The position numbers and the translations under genes were made by a program. From a virus (lineage: Duplodnaviria; Heunggongvirae; Uroviricota; Caudoviricetes), in IMG/VR virus record IMGVR_UViG_2563366955_000016: a stretch of 41,253 nucleotides of DNA; one strand, given 5' to 3'. The notes beneath the pieces were generated by a model, which was not told the DNA's origin, ran no database searches, and was given only the letters and a program-made list of their open reading frames with translations. Positions 1 to 36,879 of this stretch are shown in pieces; positions within the stretch are counted from its first letter, which is position 1, and each line of letters begins with the position of its first letter.

Positions 1-585
1 TTACATTGTGTCTGGTTCTTCCGGCCACTCAATATCAGGTGCAGTTGATGTATCAACACGGTTCAGCAACACCCGATACTTCTTCCAGGCCGCCAGCAAC
101 GAGTTTTCTTCCTCCGTTGCGATCTCCAGATCTACAGCATCCTGAAGCGGCGCTATATGCTCACTGGCTACCTGCATCAGGCTGTTTTTTGTTTCTTCCG
201 CCTCCCGGATCCGGAACAGTTTTTCTGCTTCTGCATCTTTCACCCAGGCTGTGCCGTTCCACTTCTGATATTCCCCTTCCGGTGACAACCAGGTGACATT
301 TTCCGGTAACGGACCGAGTTCAGAAATAAATAACGCGTCGCCGGAAGCCACGTCATAAACCGTTTTACCCCGATGATCTTCAACGAGATGCCACGATGAC
401 TCATCACTGTTGAAAACAGCCACAAAGCCAGCAGGAATATCTGGTGGTGCAATATCGGTACTGTTTGCTGGCAGACCTGTATGAGGCGGAATATATGCGT
501 CACCTTCACCAATAAATTCATTAGTTCCGACCAGCAGATTATAAATTTTTATGGTCCGTGGTTGTTCACTCATTCTGAATGCCAT
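1..585 (-). CDS. tail fiber assembly protein (Tfa-like), 194 aa
   Basis: Complete ORF (stop at 1-3) immediately downstream of the side tail fiber gene with ATGA-type overlap at 585; position and size match lambda-type Tfa. Confidence 0.75.
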
Positions 586-9547: not shown

Positions 9548-10246
9548 TTACTGCGAAAGTTTGTTAATGGAAAGGTAGCCGCCAAAATTGCCGACGTTAT
9601 TGCGGAACTTGCAACCACTCAGGCATTTGCTGCATTTATCCTTCGTGATATCGGACGTTGGCTGGTCATATTCATCCGCGACCGCCGGGCCATCATAACC
9701 GCACTCATCGCCGCGGTAGATCCAGGTGCAGGTGTTGGCCAGCATGATGCGCCCCGGAAAAACAGCACCGTCCGTTTCCGTCGGTGTGGACAGCACAAAA
9801 GAGGCACTGACCGCGCTCAGTTCGCTGCACTGTTCGATGCGCCAGCGGCTGATCACCTCCTGCTCCGGATCGGCGTCACTGTTTCCGTTGACGAAGTTCA
9901 CCGCATCCAGAAAACGGGCGTAAACCTTACGCCGGACCACCGTTCCGCCGACCAGACTCTGCAGATCTTCCGCCATCCCGGTGACCATGCCGTACAGATT
10001 AGAGACTTTAAGCGTTGGCCTTGCACTGGCTCCTTTGCCGTTCATCTCAAATCCGCTTCCCTGAATGGGATAAGCCTGATACTGCCGCCCCTGCCAGGTG
10101 ACTGGTTCACCTTTTTCGTTCTGCTCATTACAGAAGAAATAACGATCTCCGCCGACCTCTGTCAGATCAATTTCCCAGAGCACGACCAGCGCGGATTGCT
10201 CCGTTTTAGTGCACTCATTGAGTGTTTCCTGCTGTATATCCTGCAT
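9548..10246 (-). CDS. L: minor tail protein L, 232 aa
   Basis: Position between M and K, lambda L-like sequence with C-terminal Cys cluster. Confidence 0.85.
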   Translation of the reverse strand: MQDIQQETLNECTKTEQSALVVLWEIDLTEVGGDRYFFCNEQNEKGEPVTWQGRQYQAYPIQGSGFEMNGKGASARPTLKVSNLYGMVTGMAEDLQSLVGGTVVRRKVYARFLDAVNFVNGNSDADPEQEVISRWRIEQCSELSAVSASFVLSTPTETDGAVFPGRIMLANTCTWIYRGDECGYDGPAVADEYDQPTSDITKDKCSKCLSGCKFRNNVGNFGGYLSINKLSQ

Positions 10247-26013: not shown

Positions 26014-26088
<75 letters not shown>

Positions 26089-26091
26089 ATA

Positions 26092-26167
<76 letters not shown>

Positions 26168-26169
26168 AC

Positions 26170-26246
26170 TGGACCGCCACCGGGGACTCGAACCTCGCAC
26201 ACTCAACTTAAAGGGTTGACGCTCTTTCCTGATGAGCTAGTGGCGG
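26170..26246 (-). tRNA. tRNA-like gene with non-canonical anticodon loop CCUUUAA (UUU at positions 34-36, C at 33); isotype uncertain
   Basis: Perfect 7-bp acceptor (CCGCCAC/GTGGCGG) with C1:G72, D-arm, perfect anticodon stem TCAAC/GTTGA, T-loop TTCGAGT, encoded CCA; C33 and a T-stem A:C mismatch are atypical. Confidence 0.5.
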
Positions 26247-26247
26247 C

Positions 26248-26323
26248 TGGTGGCCCTTGCTGGATTTGAACCAGCGACCTGGCGATTATGAGTCGCTCGC
26301 TCTCACCACTGAGCTAAAGGGCC
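26248..26323 (-). tRNA. tRNA with CAU anticodon, ileX-like (tRNA-Ile2, lysidine) or elongator Met
   Basis: Hand-folded cloverleaf: GGCCCTT acceptor, anticodon loop CTCATAA, T-loop TTCAAAT, encoded CCA; close to the E. coli ileX sequence as I recall it. Confidence 0.75.
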
Positions 26324-29201: not shown

Positions 29202-29594
29202 CTACTGCCCTGTTTTAACGAAGTTTTTAAAGGAAACAACTGCCTGATAGGGGTTTGGTTGACAGCCAAACATATTATCGCAAAAAGGCTTGATGAAAAT
29301 TCTTGAGGATCCATCTTCATTTGGCATTTTACTCACCTGATAAGCGAGGAATGGACTATTTGGAGAGGGATTATAAGTGGAAATTAGCGTGTCTGTCGCC
29401 GTTTGAATTTTCCATGAGGAATTATTAGCCAACCAGAATTGCGCTCGTTTCCAATAAAAGTCACATTGCTTTTCATCATTACATGTTAGTGGCTTCATTG
29501 CTTCTGCTTTCAACGCTGGATCGACCTTTGCTGCACACCCTCCCAACATTACTGTTGCAATCATTACACCTGCGACTAAAACAAGTTTCTTCAT
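29202..29594 (-). CDS. secreted lipoprotein, 130 aa (moron)
   Basis: Signal peptide with lipobox MLGGC, six further Cys, AT-rich codon usage, own downstream terminator. Confidence 0.7.
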   Translation of the reverse strand: MKKLVLVAGVMIATVMLGGCAAKVDPALKAEAMKPLTCNDEKQCDFYWKRAQFWLANNSSWKIQTATDTLISTYNPSPNSPFLAYQVSKMPNEDGSSRIFIKPFCDNMFGCQPNPYQAVVSFKNFVKTGQ

Positions 29595-29657
29595 CTCCCT
29601 GCCCCATCAATAAAAGTTCGGTTCTCTAATAACTAGAGTTAATCAACGGAAAAAACG

Positions 29658-29673
29658 CCGAAGCGGGTTAAGT
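29658..29673 (-). terminator. Rho-independent terminator with UUCG tetraloop downstream of hok
   Basis: Minus strand CCCGC-UUCG-GCG followed by a U-run; same hairpin core as at 28991 and 13829. Confidence 0.5.
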
Positions 29674-29737
29674 GCGGGTGCGTTGAGGATGCCTGACACA
29701 TCAGAGGTGGCGAGGGATTTCTCCCCCGCCAGGTCTC

Positions 29738-29893
29738 TTACTCCTCAGGTTCGTAAGCTGTGAAGACAGCGACCTCCGTCTGGCCGGTTCGGATTCGTAC
29801 CTCGCAGAGGTCTTTCCTCGTTACCAGTGCCGTCACAATGACGGTTAAACAGATGACGATCAGGGCGATTAACATCGCCTTTTGCTGCTTCAT
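29738..29893 (-). CDS. hokD: Hok/Gef-family type I toxin (HokD/RelF-like), 51 aa
   Basis: MKQQKAMLIALIVICLTVIVTALVTRKDLCEVRIRTGQTEVAVFTAYEPEE: single TM helix plus conserved C-terminal Hok motif; AAGGAG RBS upstream; track ORF 29738..29950 has an in-frame upstream extension. Confidence 0.85.
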   Translation of the reverse strand: MKQQKAMLIALIVICLTVIVTALVTRKDLCEVRIRTGQTEVAVFTAYEPEE

Positions 29894-30815
29894 AGCCTGC
29901 TTCTCCTTGCCTTTCGGCACGTAAGAGGCTAACCTAGATTTGCCGTTCATAGATTGAGCCTCAGATTAATGTTAAGCGTCTTGCAGGACGCGTAATGTTA
30001 ACTGGGGCTTTTCTCTATCTGCCTTTGGTGTTCATGCCTGAGGCAGATAGCCTCAAGCACCCGCAGCAATTCTACTTAACTCACGTCACCTCGCCAATAT
30101 AAAATCAATCAGAAAGGCGATCCATAAGAACAACAGCAAGGCAATAAATTGCCATTACAGCAGCAATAGCCAGCGCACATTTGAGAACCAGCACCACAAC
30201 CTCCTGTATTGGACGTACACCAGTCCTGATAAATATGAGGCTGTCTCGTCAGTGATTCAATACAACTATTGGGTATAGTTTCTGTGATTTTGTTCTGTAG
30301 AAATGGAACACAACAACCAGTCACCACCAGCACTTCTTTAAATACGCCAAGTCCGACGCAAGCTAACTTTCTAGTCCGCTTTGAGCGAAAAGCAGACTGT
30401 CACGCGTTGAAGTTAATTGTATTACTTAGATAAACACTATCATTTTCCTGACGTTAAGTTGTATCTTTGATAGGATTAAAAAACGTATAGATAGCTTATG
30501 CTACTGAGGGAATAAAAATGACGAAAATTAGTGAACGATGGAAGCACAATGGCATTACTGAAGGTTATTGCAATATTTGTGGGAAATATGGTTTGCTCAC
30601 AAAAGATCATGTTCCTCCAAAGTGCGCCATAACCTTAGGCCCTGTTTTGCAGAAAACAGTTAGCGAATTTTTTGGTATTCAGGAACCAGTTAAACCATTA
30701 AATGCTAAAAATGGCTCTTATTTCAGAACCATTTGCAGCCACTGTAACAATAAGGTATTAGGTGGGCTCGATGTTGCAATTGAAAATGTAACAAAGTCCT
30801 TTAAAGAACAGTTAA

Positions 30816-32010
<1,195 letters not shown>

Positions 32011-36826: not shown

Positions 36827-36879
36827 TTTCTGGTGACGTTTGGCGGTATCAGTTTTACTCCGTGACTGCTCTGCCGCCA
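36827..36879 (+). ncRNA. dicF: DicF small regulatory RNA
   Basis: UUUCUGGUGACGUUUGGCGGUAUCAGUUUUACUCCGUGACUGCUCUGCCGCC followed by a U-run matches the DicF sequence as I recall it; sits between ydfC and dicB. Confidence 0.8.

What the first reader, a model, noticed from the sequence alone, without database searches (positions are those of the whole stretch)
29650..30110. Hok-family toxin locus without the relBE genes that accompany hokD in Qin
The 51-aa product matches the HokD/RelF sequence as I recall it, but it sits as an isolated cassette with an AAGGAG RBS, an in-frame upstream extension and its own terminator, with no relB/relE-sized ORFs nearby. Whether a Sok-type antisense RNA and mok are present in the 29894-30100 leader is unresolved.
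Basis: partly seen in the sequence, partly recalled or inferred. Interest (0 to 1): 0.4.

Follow-up and report, generated by a model that had tools for sequence, protein, structure and literature searches.

The report
Complete hok/mok/sok toxin-antitoxin cassette
This is an ordinary, fully equipped copy of the well-known hok/sok RNA-controlled toxin cassette sitting in a Qin-like prophage; about four in five E. coli genomes carry the same kind of copy, and the K-12 version fused to relBE is the derived minority form.

Summary
Window 29738-29893 (- strand) encodes a 51-aa peptide identical to E. coli K-12 HokD, and no relB or relE is present anywhere in the window. The open question is settled: the leader is not an inert remnant. 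It matches Rfam 'sok' RF01794 end to end (111.7 bits, E=5.6e-26). It carries an in-frame 70-codon mok, a Sok promoter and a 77-nt Sok RNA (29942-30018, + strand). The tac, fbi, ucb and dcb elements are all identifiable. Minimum-energy folds reproduce the three conformations described for plasmid R1 hok mRNA. The tac/fbi pair and the Sok hairpin covary across roughly 40 loci from Escherichia to Photorhabdus. The locus is 93.5% identical to hokW-sokW of Sakai prophage 5, an experimentally validated type I toxin-antitoxin system. The same leader occurs in 4287 of 5426 complete E. coli genomes. The K-12 relE-hokD junction occurs in only 1167, and K-12 homology starts exactly at the hok ribosome-binding site. 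Absence of relBE is therefore the normal state. Minor peculiarities: a weakened 3' terminator, no YUNR motif in the Sok target loop, and an unannotated 30-codon hydrophobic ORF upstream. Already known; low interest.

The parts
30069..30097 (-). hok (mok-hok) promoter: -35 TTGGCG (30097-30092), 17-nt spacer, -10 TAGAAT (30074-30069); predicted +1 at G30062
   Evidence: Consensus scan. The -10 (TAGAAT/TAGGAT/TACAAT) sits at the same distance from GGGTGC in Sp5, PPompW and IncY copies. The Rfam model starts at 30062. Not tested experimentally.
29650..30062 (-). Full-length mok-hok mRNA (about 411 nt)
   Evidence: Fold of 30062->29652: -167 kcal/mol, z = -7.3, 0 of 100 shuffles as stable. The 5' end pairs with the 3' end. 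The 3' end is inferred from the U-run.
30051..30062 (-). tac (translational activator element), GGGUGCUUGAGG
   Evidence: It pairs with fbi in the full-length fold and with ucb in the truncated fold. It pairs with 30044-30034 in the nascent leader, the metastable hairpin. It covaries with fbi across loci.
30004..30010 (-). ucb / anti-SD, AAGCCCC
   Evidence: It pairs with the mok SD in the full-length fold and with tac in the truncated fold and in the RNAalifold consensus. Invariant in 39 leaders. Element definitions come from PMC9841398.
29959..29962 (-). mok Shine-Dalgarno, GAGG
   Evidence: It lies within the GAGGC block, which ends 7 nt before the mok ATG. GAGGC is invariant in 39 leaders.
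29738..29950 (-). mok ORF, 70 codons, in frame with hok and sharing its stop codon
   Evidence: ORF list. PHROG 251 'MokW-like host killing' at E=7.7e-33. Same layout as the annotated mokC/hokC of K-12 and the mok plus hok annotation in phage Stx2a_F422. In frame in 28 of 39 homologous leaders.
29925..29929 (-). dcb, GCCUC
   Evidence: It pairs with the mok SD block GAGGC in the truncated fold and in the RNAalifold consensus, where 39 of 39 sequences keep the pairs.
29903..29908 (-). hok Shine-Dalgarno AAGGAG; homology with K-12 hokD starts here (29907)
   Evidence: Sequence. blastn against K-12 gives 98% over window 29650-29907 and nothing upstream.
29738..29893 (-). hok CDS, 51 aa, identical to K-12 HokD
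29752..29755 (-). TACG at codon Tyr47 plus the first base of Glu48: the TadA A-to-I editing motif (Tyr to Cys recoding) reported for hok genes
   Evidence: The sequence shows TAC GAA. The motif and its conservation are described in bioRxiv 10.1101/2025.08.07.668861. Editing was not tested here.
29709..29730 (-). Stable 3'-UTR hairpin GGCGGGGGAGAAAUCCCUCGCC; likely the 3'-terminal protective stem-loop of the truncated mRNA
   Evidence: Present in both the full-length and truncated folds. Its role is inferred from the R1 model (PMC9841398).
29676..29688 (-). fbi (fold-back inhibitory element), CCUCAACGCACCC
   Evidence: Best duplex with tac: -21.5 kcal/mol, 49 nt after the stop codon, 0 of 200 shuffled UTRs as good. 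Homologues have it at 45-56 nt, with compensatory changes.
29650..29665 (-). Weak intrinsic terminator CGCUUCGGCG + UUUUUU; a mosaic junction with the neighbouring module lies at about 29650
   Evidence: GG to TT relative to K-12 and PPompW shortens the stem from 5 to 3 bp; -3.1 versus -8.7 kcal/mol. Not reported by the terminator scan.
29907..29935 (+). Sok promoter: -35 TTGCCT (29907-29912, opposite the hok SD), 17-nt spacer, -10 TAACCT (29930-29935)
   Evidence: Position and sequence are conserved in 39 leaders: -35 TTGCCT, TTGACC or TTGCGG; -10 TAACCT, TAATCT, CACTCT or TATCCT. As reconstructed from their primers, the sokW promoter-less mutant of PMC8621323 appears to alter this same hexamer (primer YO-421). 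Below the threshold of the generic scan.
29942..30018 (+). Sok antisense RNA, about 77 nt: 5' single-stranded tail GCCGUUCAU... complementary to the mok start codon, a long hairpin, then GGGGCUUUUCUCUAU
   Evidence: Both ends were set by alignment to the annotated K-12 sokC. Fold: -33.3 kcal/mol, z = -5.4. The same architecture, with different hairpin sequences, is found in all 39 homologues.

Best explanation
The locus is a complete hok/mok/sok type I toxin-antitoxin module of the hokD/hokW lineage. It is carried as cargo in the early-right ('nin') region of a Qin-like lambdoid prophage.

Inferred mechanism, by homology with plasmid R1 hok/sok and Sp5 hokW-sokW:
- A weak promoter (30097-30069) makes a roughly 411-nt mok-hok mRNA.
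- While nascent, its 5' tac element is held in a metastable hairpin.
- When complete, tac pairs with fbi near the 3' end, and ucb masks the mok ribosome-binding site. The full-length RNA is then neither translated nor bound by Sok.
- Slow 3' trimming removes fbi. tac switches to ucb, and the mok start region is presented in a hairpin.
- At that point either the abundant, unstable 77-nt Sok RNA pairs with it and the duplex is destroyed by RNase III, or, if Sok has decayed, ribosomes translate mok and thereby hok.
- Hok, a 51-aa inner-membrane peptide, then collapses the membrane potential.

Likely biological role: helping lysis and progeny release on induction, as shown for hokW-sokW, and/or stabilising the prophage or aborting infection by other phages.

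Shown here: the sequence anatomy, the predicted folds, covariation, distribution, and identity or similarity to characterised loci. Inferred: transcription, processing, toxicity and role.
For: Toxin and leader:
- Hok is identical to K-12 HokD and matches Pfam HOK_GEF at 1.2e-23.
- HokD is toxic when overexpressed, according to bioRxiv 10.1101/2025.08.07.668861.
- The leader matches Rfam RF01794 over the full model: 111.7 bits against a gathering score of 59, E=5.6e-26.
- mok has 70 codons, with the invariant GAGGC block (containing the GAGG SD) ending 7 nt upstream, and matches PHROG 251 MokW-like at 7.7e-33.

Sok:
- The ends 29942-30018 were set by homology with annotated sokC.
- It folds as a tail plus a terminator hairpin.
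- The same architecture is kept in 39 distinct leaders although the hairpin sequence is replaced between lineages.

mRNA conformations:
- The full-length fold has tac/fbi and ucb/SD-mok pairings.
- The fold with fbi removed has tac/ucb and SD-mok/dcb.
- The nascent leader has the metastable tac hairpin.
- These are the three states described for R1 (PMC9841398).

Covariation of tac/fbi:
- Escherichia has GGGUGCUUGAGG with CCUCAA(C)GCACCC.
- Photorhabdus has GGGCGCUUGAGA with UCUCAAGCGCCC.
- Two positions change on both sides, and fbi always lies 45-56 nt after the stop codon.

Relatives and context:
- The locus is 93.5% identical over 417 nt to hokW-sokW of VT2-Sakai/Sp5.
- That locus was shown to be a type I TA dependent on RNase III and Hfq, and it promotes phage release (PMC8621323). 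Several of its primers and probes match the window exactly or with one mismatch.
- The leader is present in 4287 of 5426 E. coli genomes, at 9554 places.
Against: - Nothing was measured: there is no transcript, processing or toxicity data for this copy.
- The 3' terminator is weakened to a 3-bp stem. This could allow read-through into the downstream lipoprotein-like gene (29594-29202) and alter the 3'-end-dependent activation step.
- The Sok target loop lacks the YUNR U-turn motif that 27 of 39 relatives have. Sok binding may therefore be slower.
- Both predicted promoters are modest consensus matches. Sok's -10 TAACCT matches 3 of 6 positions and was not picked up by the generic scan.
- Chromosomal hok loci with intact elements (hokA of E. 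coli C, hokB of K-12, hokC of ECOR24) were reported not to mediate post-segregational killing (summarised in bioRxiv 10.1101/2025.08.07.668861). An intact anatomy does not prove an addiction function.
Confidence: 0.9

Rival explanations
1. It is an inert or decaying remnant. The cassette looks intact but is silent, like the K-12 chromosomal hok loci, and persists only by hitch-hiking in the prophage.
For: - Intact-looking chromosomal hok loci failed to give post-segregational killing in earlier work (cited).
- The terminator stem is degraded relative to K-12 and PPompW.
- There is no YUNR motif in the target loop.
- An IS5 has landed about 750 bp upstream, which shows the region tolerates damage.
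Against: - Every regulatory element is present and foldable.
- tac/fbi and the Sok hairpin are maintained by compensatory change across genera, which implies selection on the RNA mechanism.
- The Hok protein is invariant, identical across many genomes.
- The 93.5%-identical hokW-sokW is active.
- No frameshift, stop codon or IS lies within 29650-30097.
Confidence: 0.06
2. Hok is expressed mainly as part of a phage transcription unit, not as an autonomous module. On induction, antiterminated early-right transcripts run through the cassette in the hok direction. They would make hok RNA that lacks the proper tac 5' end and so escapes fold-back inhibition, and they would collide with Sok transcription. 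This is analogous to the relBEF operon of K-12, where hokD is co-transcribed with upstream genes.
For: - hok is co-oriented with the replication, DUF968, RusA, Q and lysis genes on the - strand.
- In K-12, hokD is transcribed from the relBE promoter (PMC3598666).
- For hokW, mitomycin C lowers sokW and raises HokW in a RecA-dependent way (PMC8621323 abstract). That fits induction-driven read-through, but this link is my inference.
- Terminator-like hairpins lie just upstream at 30170-30140. They could either block or modulate such read-through.
Against: - The cassette keeps its own promoter at the conserved distance from tac.
- All autonomous control elements are conserved.
- The oppositely oriented, IS5-interrupted gene and the terminator-like sites lie between the upstream operon and hok.
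- This reading complements the best explanation rather than excluding it.
Confidence: 0.25
3. It acts as an abortive-infection (phage-exclusion) cargo gene rather than as a prophage addiction or lysis-helper module. Host transcription shut-off by an incoming phage depletes Sok and releases Hok.
For: - R1 hok/sok has been implicated in phage defence (stated in PMC8621323, and in the discussion of bioRxiv 10.1101/2025.08.07.668861).
- In other genomes the slot next to hokD-type cassettes holds variable cargo, including a retron Ec67-family reverse transcriptase, a DUF2326 protein, QueH and ImmA/IrrE.
Against: - The survey in bioRxiv 10.1101/2025.08.07.668861 found no enrichment of hok next to known defence systems.
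- No direct test exists for hokD or hokW.
- The only experimental role reported for the closest relative is help with progeny release.
Confidence: 0.2

Closest known systems
hokW-sokW of Sakai prophage 5 / VT2-Sakai (PMC8621323)
   Same: 93.5% nucleotide identity over window 29666-30082. The leader length is the same (172 nt), mok is in frame with 70 codons, and the Sok promoter hexamers, long Sok hairpin, tac and fbi are the same. Both reside in lambdoid prophages.
   Different: Hok differs at the C-terminus (…VFTAYEPEE here, …VFVDYESEK in HokW). mok codons 2-5, which pair with the Sok 5' tail, differ (AUGAACGGCAAAUC versus AUGCUGAACACAUG), and the window lacks the YUNR motif. The position in the phage genome and the flanks differ. 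Homology ends just after fbi, so the 3' ends differ.
hokD (relF) of the relBEF operon, cryptic prophage Qin, E. coli K-12
   Same: Identical 51-aa protein, and 98% identical DNA from the hok SD to the terminator, including fbi. Same type of prophage and neighbouring genes: DUF968/ydfU, Q, dicB, ydfABC.
   Different: K-12 has relB-relE in place of everything 5' of the hok SD. It has no hok promoter, tac, ucb, mok start, dcb, Sok promoter or Sok, and hokD is co-transcribed with relBE (PMC3598666). The K-12 junction is in 1167 genomes and the intact leader in 4287. K-12 keeps the stronger terminator.
hok/sok (parB) of plasmid R1 and R1-type plasmid copies
   Same: Same set of elements and the same predicted three-state folding pathway. 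The Sok -35 lies opposite the hok SD. An R1-type copy on a Klebsiella IncFII plasmid aligns along the whole leader and has its own tac/fbi pair.
   Different: Hok is only about 43% identical to the Klebsiella plasmid (R1-type) copy; HokW versus R1 Hok is 44%. mok is in frame here and +1 in the R1-type copy. The Sok hairpin is 16-21 nt longer. The location is a prophage, not a conjugative plasmid. The R1 sequence itself could not be retrieved.
hokC/mokC/sokC (gef) of E. coli K-12
   Same: 82% identical Hok. mokC is in frame and shares the stop codon. The sokC start and end align base for base with the window's predicted Sok ends.
   Different: It is a chromosomal, non-prophage locus. In K-12 an IS186 sits immediately downstream, and the tac/fbi duplex is not found at the normal distance. 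It has a shorter Sok of 59 nt.

Membership tests
hok/mok/sok type I toxin-antitoxin family | Hok peptide of about 50 aa with a HOK_GEF domain (N-terminal transmembrane helix; conserved C, T, L-C-E and E residues) | tested here: met
   Pfam PF01848 at E=1.2e-23, covering profile positions 1-42 of 42. C15, T17, L29, C30, E31 and E40 are invariant in the alignment with HokW, HokC, HokA, HokE and a plasmid Hok.
hok/mok/sok type I toxin-antitoxin family | Leader RNA homologous in sequence and structure to known hok leaders | tested here: met
   Rfam RF01794, model positions 1-157 of 157, 111.7 bits (gathering score 59), E=5.6e-26. The model is oriented with the hok mRNA and ends at the hok AUG.
hok/mok/sok type I toxin-antitoxin family | An overlapping mok reading frame with its own SD, starting about 57 nt upstream of the hok ATG | tested here: met
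   ATG at 29950, 57 nt upstream, in frame, 70 codons; the invariant GAGGC block containing the GAGG SD ends 7 nt before it. 39 of 39 homologous leaders have an ATG 56-58 nt upstream of the hok ATG.
hok/mok/sok type I toxin-antitoxin family | A cis-encoded antisense Sok RNA: own promoter opposite the hok SD region, a single-stranded 5' tail complementary to the mok start region, and a terminator hairpin | tested here: met
   Sequence features only. The promoter is at 29907-29935 and the RNA at 29942-30018. Expression cannot be tested with these tools.
hok/mok/sok type I toxin-antitoxin family | Long-range tac (5') and fbi (3') pairing that closes the full-length mRNA | tested here: met
   Present in the MFE fold. 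Duplex of -21.5 kcal/mol, 0 of 200 shuffles as good. Compensatory changes occur at two positions across genera.
hok/mok/sok type I toxin-antitoxin family | The ucb/dcb switch (ucb masks the mok SD in the full-length RNA; tac/ucb and SD/dcb pair after 3' truncation) and a metastable 5' hairpin in the nascent RNA | tested here: met
   In silico only, against the definitions in PMC9841398. The pairs are invariant, so there is no covariation evidence for these helices.
hok/mok/sok type I toxin-antitoxin family | YUNR U-turn motif in the loop that Sok first contacts (typical of R1-type targets; from my own knowledge of Franch et al. 1999; not strictly defining) | tested here: not met
   There is no YUNR in the 12 nt after the mok AUG in the window. 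27 of 39 relatives have one and 12 do not.
hok/mok/sok type I toxin-antitoxin family | A defined 3' end (intrinsic terminator just after fbi), so that 3' trimming can remove fbi | tested here: inconclusive
   3-bp UUCG hairpin plus U6, -3.1 kcal/mol, weaker than the K-12 equivalent at -8.7. It is missed by the scan. 3' ends differ among family members.
hok/mok/sok type I toxin-antitoxin family | Hok kills or arrests the cell, and Sok counteracts it | not testable with these tools
   Indirect evidence only. The identical HokD is toxic on overexpression (bioRxiv 10.1101/2025.08.07.668861), and the 93.5%-identical hokW-sokW behaves as a TA pair (PMC8621323).
relBEF operon arrangement (K-12 Qin) | relB and relE immediately upstream of, and co-transcribed with, hokD | tested here: not met
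   tblastn with RelB and RelE against the window gives best E-values of 1.5 and 0.55. The DNA upstream of 29907 is unrelated to K-12.

The most novel reading that the evidence does not exclude
The unannotated 30-codon hydrophobic ORF at 30105-30197 (- strand; AGGAGG SD, GTG start, MVLVLKCALAIAAVMAIYCLAVVLMDRLSD) ends 8 nt before the hok -35. It may be a real small membrane protein that travels with hokD-type cassettes, making it a fourth component. It could be a second membrane-active peptide, or a modulator of Hok or of read-through into hok.
Probability: 0.1. Interest if true: 0.4.

Novelty: already known. Interest (0 to 1): 0.1.

Why it matters
It matters little beyond correct annotation. 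The locus shows what the ancestral, fully regulated hokD cassette looks like, and that the textbook K-12 relBE-hokD operon is a derived fusion that deleted the whole RNA control region. For annotating this window, mok, Sok RNA and the mRNA control elements should be added next to hokD; automatic annotation gives only the hok CDS. The cassette also marks a variable cargo slot in Qin-like prophages. Neighbours seen in other genomes include a retron reverse transcriptase, DUF2326, QueH and ImmA.

Tried and rejected
- The plasmid R1 (KY749247) and F (AP001918) records were not in the collections. The comparison with R1 therefore rests on the Rfam model, an R1-type Klebsiella plasmid copy and the literature.
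- My remembered coordinates for hokB were wrong, and that fetch gave nothing useful.
- A 7-protein Hok alignment was too diverse for the locus search. A 4-protein alignment worked.
- Faridani et al. 2006 (PMC1635323) held nothing on hokD.
- I found no open-access text of Pedersen & Gerdes 1999. The statement that K-12 hokD lacks the leader is therefore based on my own alignment, not on that paper.
- Script or argument errors occurred.
- MAFFT could not place the length-variable Sok hairpin in common columns. RNAalifold left it unpaired. I judged it by folding each Sok on its own instead of using count of structure pairs or a covariance model.
- I considered that the + strand Rfam 'sok' hit at 30004-30159 (20.5 bits, E=0.09) might be a second cassette. 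I rejected this: it falls below the gathering score and reflects the palindromic 5' hairpin.
- I considered a second hok elsewhere in the window. There is none.
- The large protein-database searches and structure prediction were not needed and were not used.
Full report
**1. Checking the observation**

On the - strand, 29893..29738 encodes a 51-aa peptide. It is identical to K-12 HokD: I translated both and compared them, and RefSeq gives the same protein accession, WP_000813254.1, in a near-identical prophage of E. coli strain 165 and in a K-12 derivative. It matches Pfam HOK_GEF at 1.2e-23.

AAGGAG lies 9 nt before the ATG. An in-frame ATG at 29950 extends the frame to 70 codons. tblastn with K-12 RelB and RelE finds nothing in the 41-kb window.

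The one weak point is 'its own terminator'. The hairpin here has a 3-bp stem (CGCUUCGGCG, -3.1 kcal/mol) followed by U6. K-12 and phage PPompW have CCCGCUUCGGCGGG (5 bp, -8.7 kcal/mol).

**2. Context**

The window is a Qin-like lambdoid prophage. It is collinear at 99.9-100% identity with one in E. coli strain 165, apart from a 1.19-kb IS5 at 30817-32010.

The cassette lies between the replication module and the DUF968/RusA/Q/lysis genes, and is co-oriented with them. Read in the direction of hok, a phrog_21495 gene on the opposite strand (interrupted by the IS5) lies upstream, and a lipoprotein-like gene lies downstream.

**3. The leader is a full hok control region**

Rfam RF01794 ('sok') matches 30062..29888 on the hok strand over the entire model. 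The score is 111.7 bits against a gathering score of 59, E=5.6e-26.

A sigma-70-like promoter (TTGGCG, 17-nt spacer, TAGAAT; 30097-30069) puts +1 at G30062. The -10 is conserved at the same distance in Sp5, PPompW and IncY phage-plasmid copies.

The upstream in-frame ORF is mok:
- The invariant GAGGC block, which contains the GAGG SD, ends 7 nt before the ATG, and the ATG lies 57 nt before the hok ATG.
- All 39 distinct homologous leaders I collected have this ATG 56-58 nt upstream of the hok ATG. It is in frame in 28, +1 in 8 (the R1 type), and a short ORF in 3.
- K-12 mokC/hokC are annotated with exactly this shared-stop layout.
- Some phage records annotate both mok and hok.
- PHROG 251 'MokW-like host killing' matches at 7.7e-33.

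**4. Sok**

On the + strand, TTGCCT (29907-29912, opposite the hok SD), a 17-nt spacer and TAACCT (29930-29935) form the promoter. As I reconstruct it from their primer YO-421, the authors of the hokW-sokW study appear to have mutated this same hexamer to silence sokW.

Aligning the annotated K-12 sokC to the window places Sok +1 at G29942 and the 3' end at 30018, giving 77 nt. The RNA folds as a 9-nt free 5' tail, complementary to the mok AUG region, followed by a long hairpin and GGGGCUUUUCUCU (-33.3 kcal/mol, z = -5.4).

In all 39 homologues the same architecture is kept. The inner hairpin sequence is replaced wholesale between lineages (…CAGAUUAAUGUUAAGCGUC…, …CGGGUUGAUGG…, …CAAAUUGAUUG…, …CACUUCGAUU…), yet it stays paired.

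The base of the stem is G-C/G·U perfect on the Sok strand (GCCUCAG/CUGGGGC). On the sense strand the same stem has a C·A mismatch. That is the expected signature of selection acting on the antisense RNA.

**5. mRNA folding elements**

Using the element definitions in PMC9841398, the three conformations are predicted as follows:
- The full-length RNA (30062 to 29652) folds at -167 kcal/mol (z = -7.3). tac (GGGUGCUUGAGG, 30062-30051) pairs with fbi (CCUCAACGCACCC, 29688-29676), and ucb (30010-30004) pairs with the mok SD.
- Removing the 3' 41 nt switches the MFE structure to tac/ucb plus SD-mok/dcb (dcb at 29929-25). The mok AUG and the Sok-tail target then sit at the top of a hairpin.
- The leader alone forms the metastable tac hairpin.

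Across about 40 loci from Escherichia, Kluyvera, Pseudocitrobacter, Pantoea and Photorhabdus, and a Klebsiella plasmid, a tac-complementary segment sits 45-56 nt after the stop codon. The exception is the plasmid copy, at 65 nt. Two positions change on both sides: U-A to C-G, and G-C to A-U. The two loci that deviate are K-12 hokC and hokE, each with an IS186 immediately downstream.

The tac/ucb and SD/dcb pairs are invariant. Conservation supports them, but covariation does not.

**6. Relation to known loci**

The cassette is 93.5% identical over 417 nt to hokW-sokW of VT2-Sakai/Sp5. Several published hokW-sokW primers and probes match the window exactly or with one mismatch. hokW-sokW was shown to be a type I TA dependent on RNase III and Hfq. 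Its Sok falls and its Hok rises after mitomycin C, and it roughly doubles phage release (PMC8621323).

K-12 homology covers only 29650-29907. It begins at the hok SD, and upstream K-12 has relE and relB instead. There hokD is co-transcribed with them (PMC3598666).

Population counts for 5426 complete E. coli genomes:

| Feature | Genomes |
|---|---|
| Intact 196-nt leader at >=80% coverage | 4287 |
| K-12 relE-hokD junction | 1167 |

The leader occurs at 9554 places, with a median of 2 and a maximum of 10 per genome. It is also present in 110 phage records and in P1-like/IncY phage-plasmids.

The window therefore shows the common, presumably ancestral state, and K-12 shows the derived one. Enrichment of hok in prophages is already documented (bioRxiv 10.1101/2025.08.07.668861).

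**7. Peculiarities of this copy**

- The mosaic junction with the downstream module falls inside the terminator's 3' arm. This weakens the terminator, so read-through into the lipoprotein-like gene is possible.
- mok codons 2-5, which pair with the Sok 5' tail (AUGAACGGCAAAUC), differ from most relatives and lack a YUNR motif.
- This patch (mRNA positions 102-128) is the most variable part of otherwise near-identical leaders, with 7-8 alleles among 13 sequences. That would fit diversification of Sok/hok specificity among co-resident copies, but this is my inference.
- Tyr47 is TAC followed by G, the TadA editing motif reported for hok genes.

**8. Verdict**

This is a complete, ordinary hok/mok/sok module of the hokD/hokW lineage. 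Nothing here departs from the known family in kind, so the finding is already known and of low interest.

The transcripts, the processing, the toxicity and the biological role (lysis helper, prophage stabiliser or phage exclusion) are inferred, not shown.

Noticed in passing
window 30105-30197 (- strand): There is an unannotated 30-codon hydrophobic ORF (MVLVLKCALAIAAVMAIYCLAVVLMDRLSD) with an AGGAGG SD and a GTG start. It ends 8 nt before the hok -35. The SD, the frame and the stop codon are kept in seven distinct alleles (window/Tritos, HannyBb/E. coli C, mEp460/E. ruysiae, FORC064, KK05-19, MSB1_9D), with mostly conservative changes, even where the sequence upstream of the SD diverges. It has no Pfam, NCBIfam or PHROG match. 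Terminator-like hairpins overlap it, so it might instead be an insulator.
   Followed up: partly
window 30817-32010: An IS5 (InsH transposase, 338 aa, at 30848-31864) is inserted in a 269-aa gene of unknown function (phrog_21495; CxxC...CxxC N-terminus; no Pfam match). That gene is intact in E. coli strain 165. The flanks overlap by about 4-5 bp, as expected for a target duplication.
   Followed up: partly
window 29935-29961 (mRNA positions 102-128); loci L008, L016, L018, L019, L022, L025, L027, L031, L070: The mok start region, which pairs with the Sok 5' tail, is a hypervariable patch in otherwise about 98%-identical hokD-type leaders. There are 7-8 alleles among 13 sequences, against 1-3 in flanking 12-nt windows. 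Genomes hold up to 10 copies, so this may set Sok/hok specificity. K-12 sokC and Sp5 sokW share the tail GUUCAGCAU, so cross-talk between them is conceivable.
   Followed up: partly
window 29202-29594 (- strand): A 130-aa predicted lipoprotein (signal peptide ending in the lipobox LGGC; phrog_16082, unknown function) starts 56 nt after the weakened hok terminator on the same strand. The scan found no promoter-like site of its own for it. It may be expressed by read-through.
   Followed up: no
L014, L015, L072-L075 (regions flanking hokD-type cassettes in other genomes): The slot next to the cassette is a variable cargo site in Qin-like prophages. Contents seen: QueH (epoxyqueuosine reductase), a retron Ec67-family reverse transcriptase/endonuclease, a DUF2326 protein, an ImmA/IrrE peptidase, rem, or the phrog_21495 gene seen here.
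   Followed up: no
window 36828-36879 (+ strand): DicF antisense sRNA (Rfam RF00039, 73.4 bits), next to dicB/ydfABC-type genes, as in Qin.
   Followed up: no
window 26017-26323 (- strand): Four phage-borne tRNA genes lie between Q and the holin. They are annotated Gly, Thr, Lys and Ile in the near-identical strain 165 prophage.
   Followed up: no
window 44-242 (- strand): A full-length match to Rfam RF02111 'IS009' (219 bits) lies at the tail-fibre end of the prophage.
   Followed up: no
L027, L033, L037, L043, L070 (genome-contig hits): Near-identical hokD cassettes appear in assemblies labelled Veillonella parvula MAG, Proteobacteria MAG, Acinetobacter idrijaensis, Xanthomonas pisi and 'Candidatus Scatousia'. 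Most are on short contigs. These are most likely E. coli or phage contamination or mis-binning rather than true hosts.
   Followed up: no
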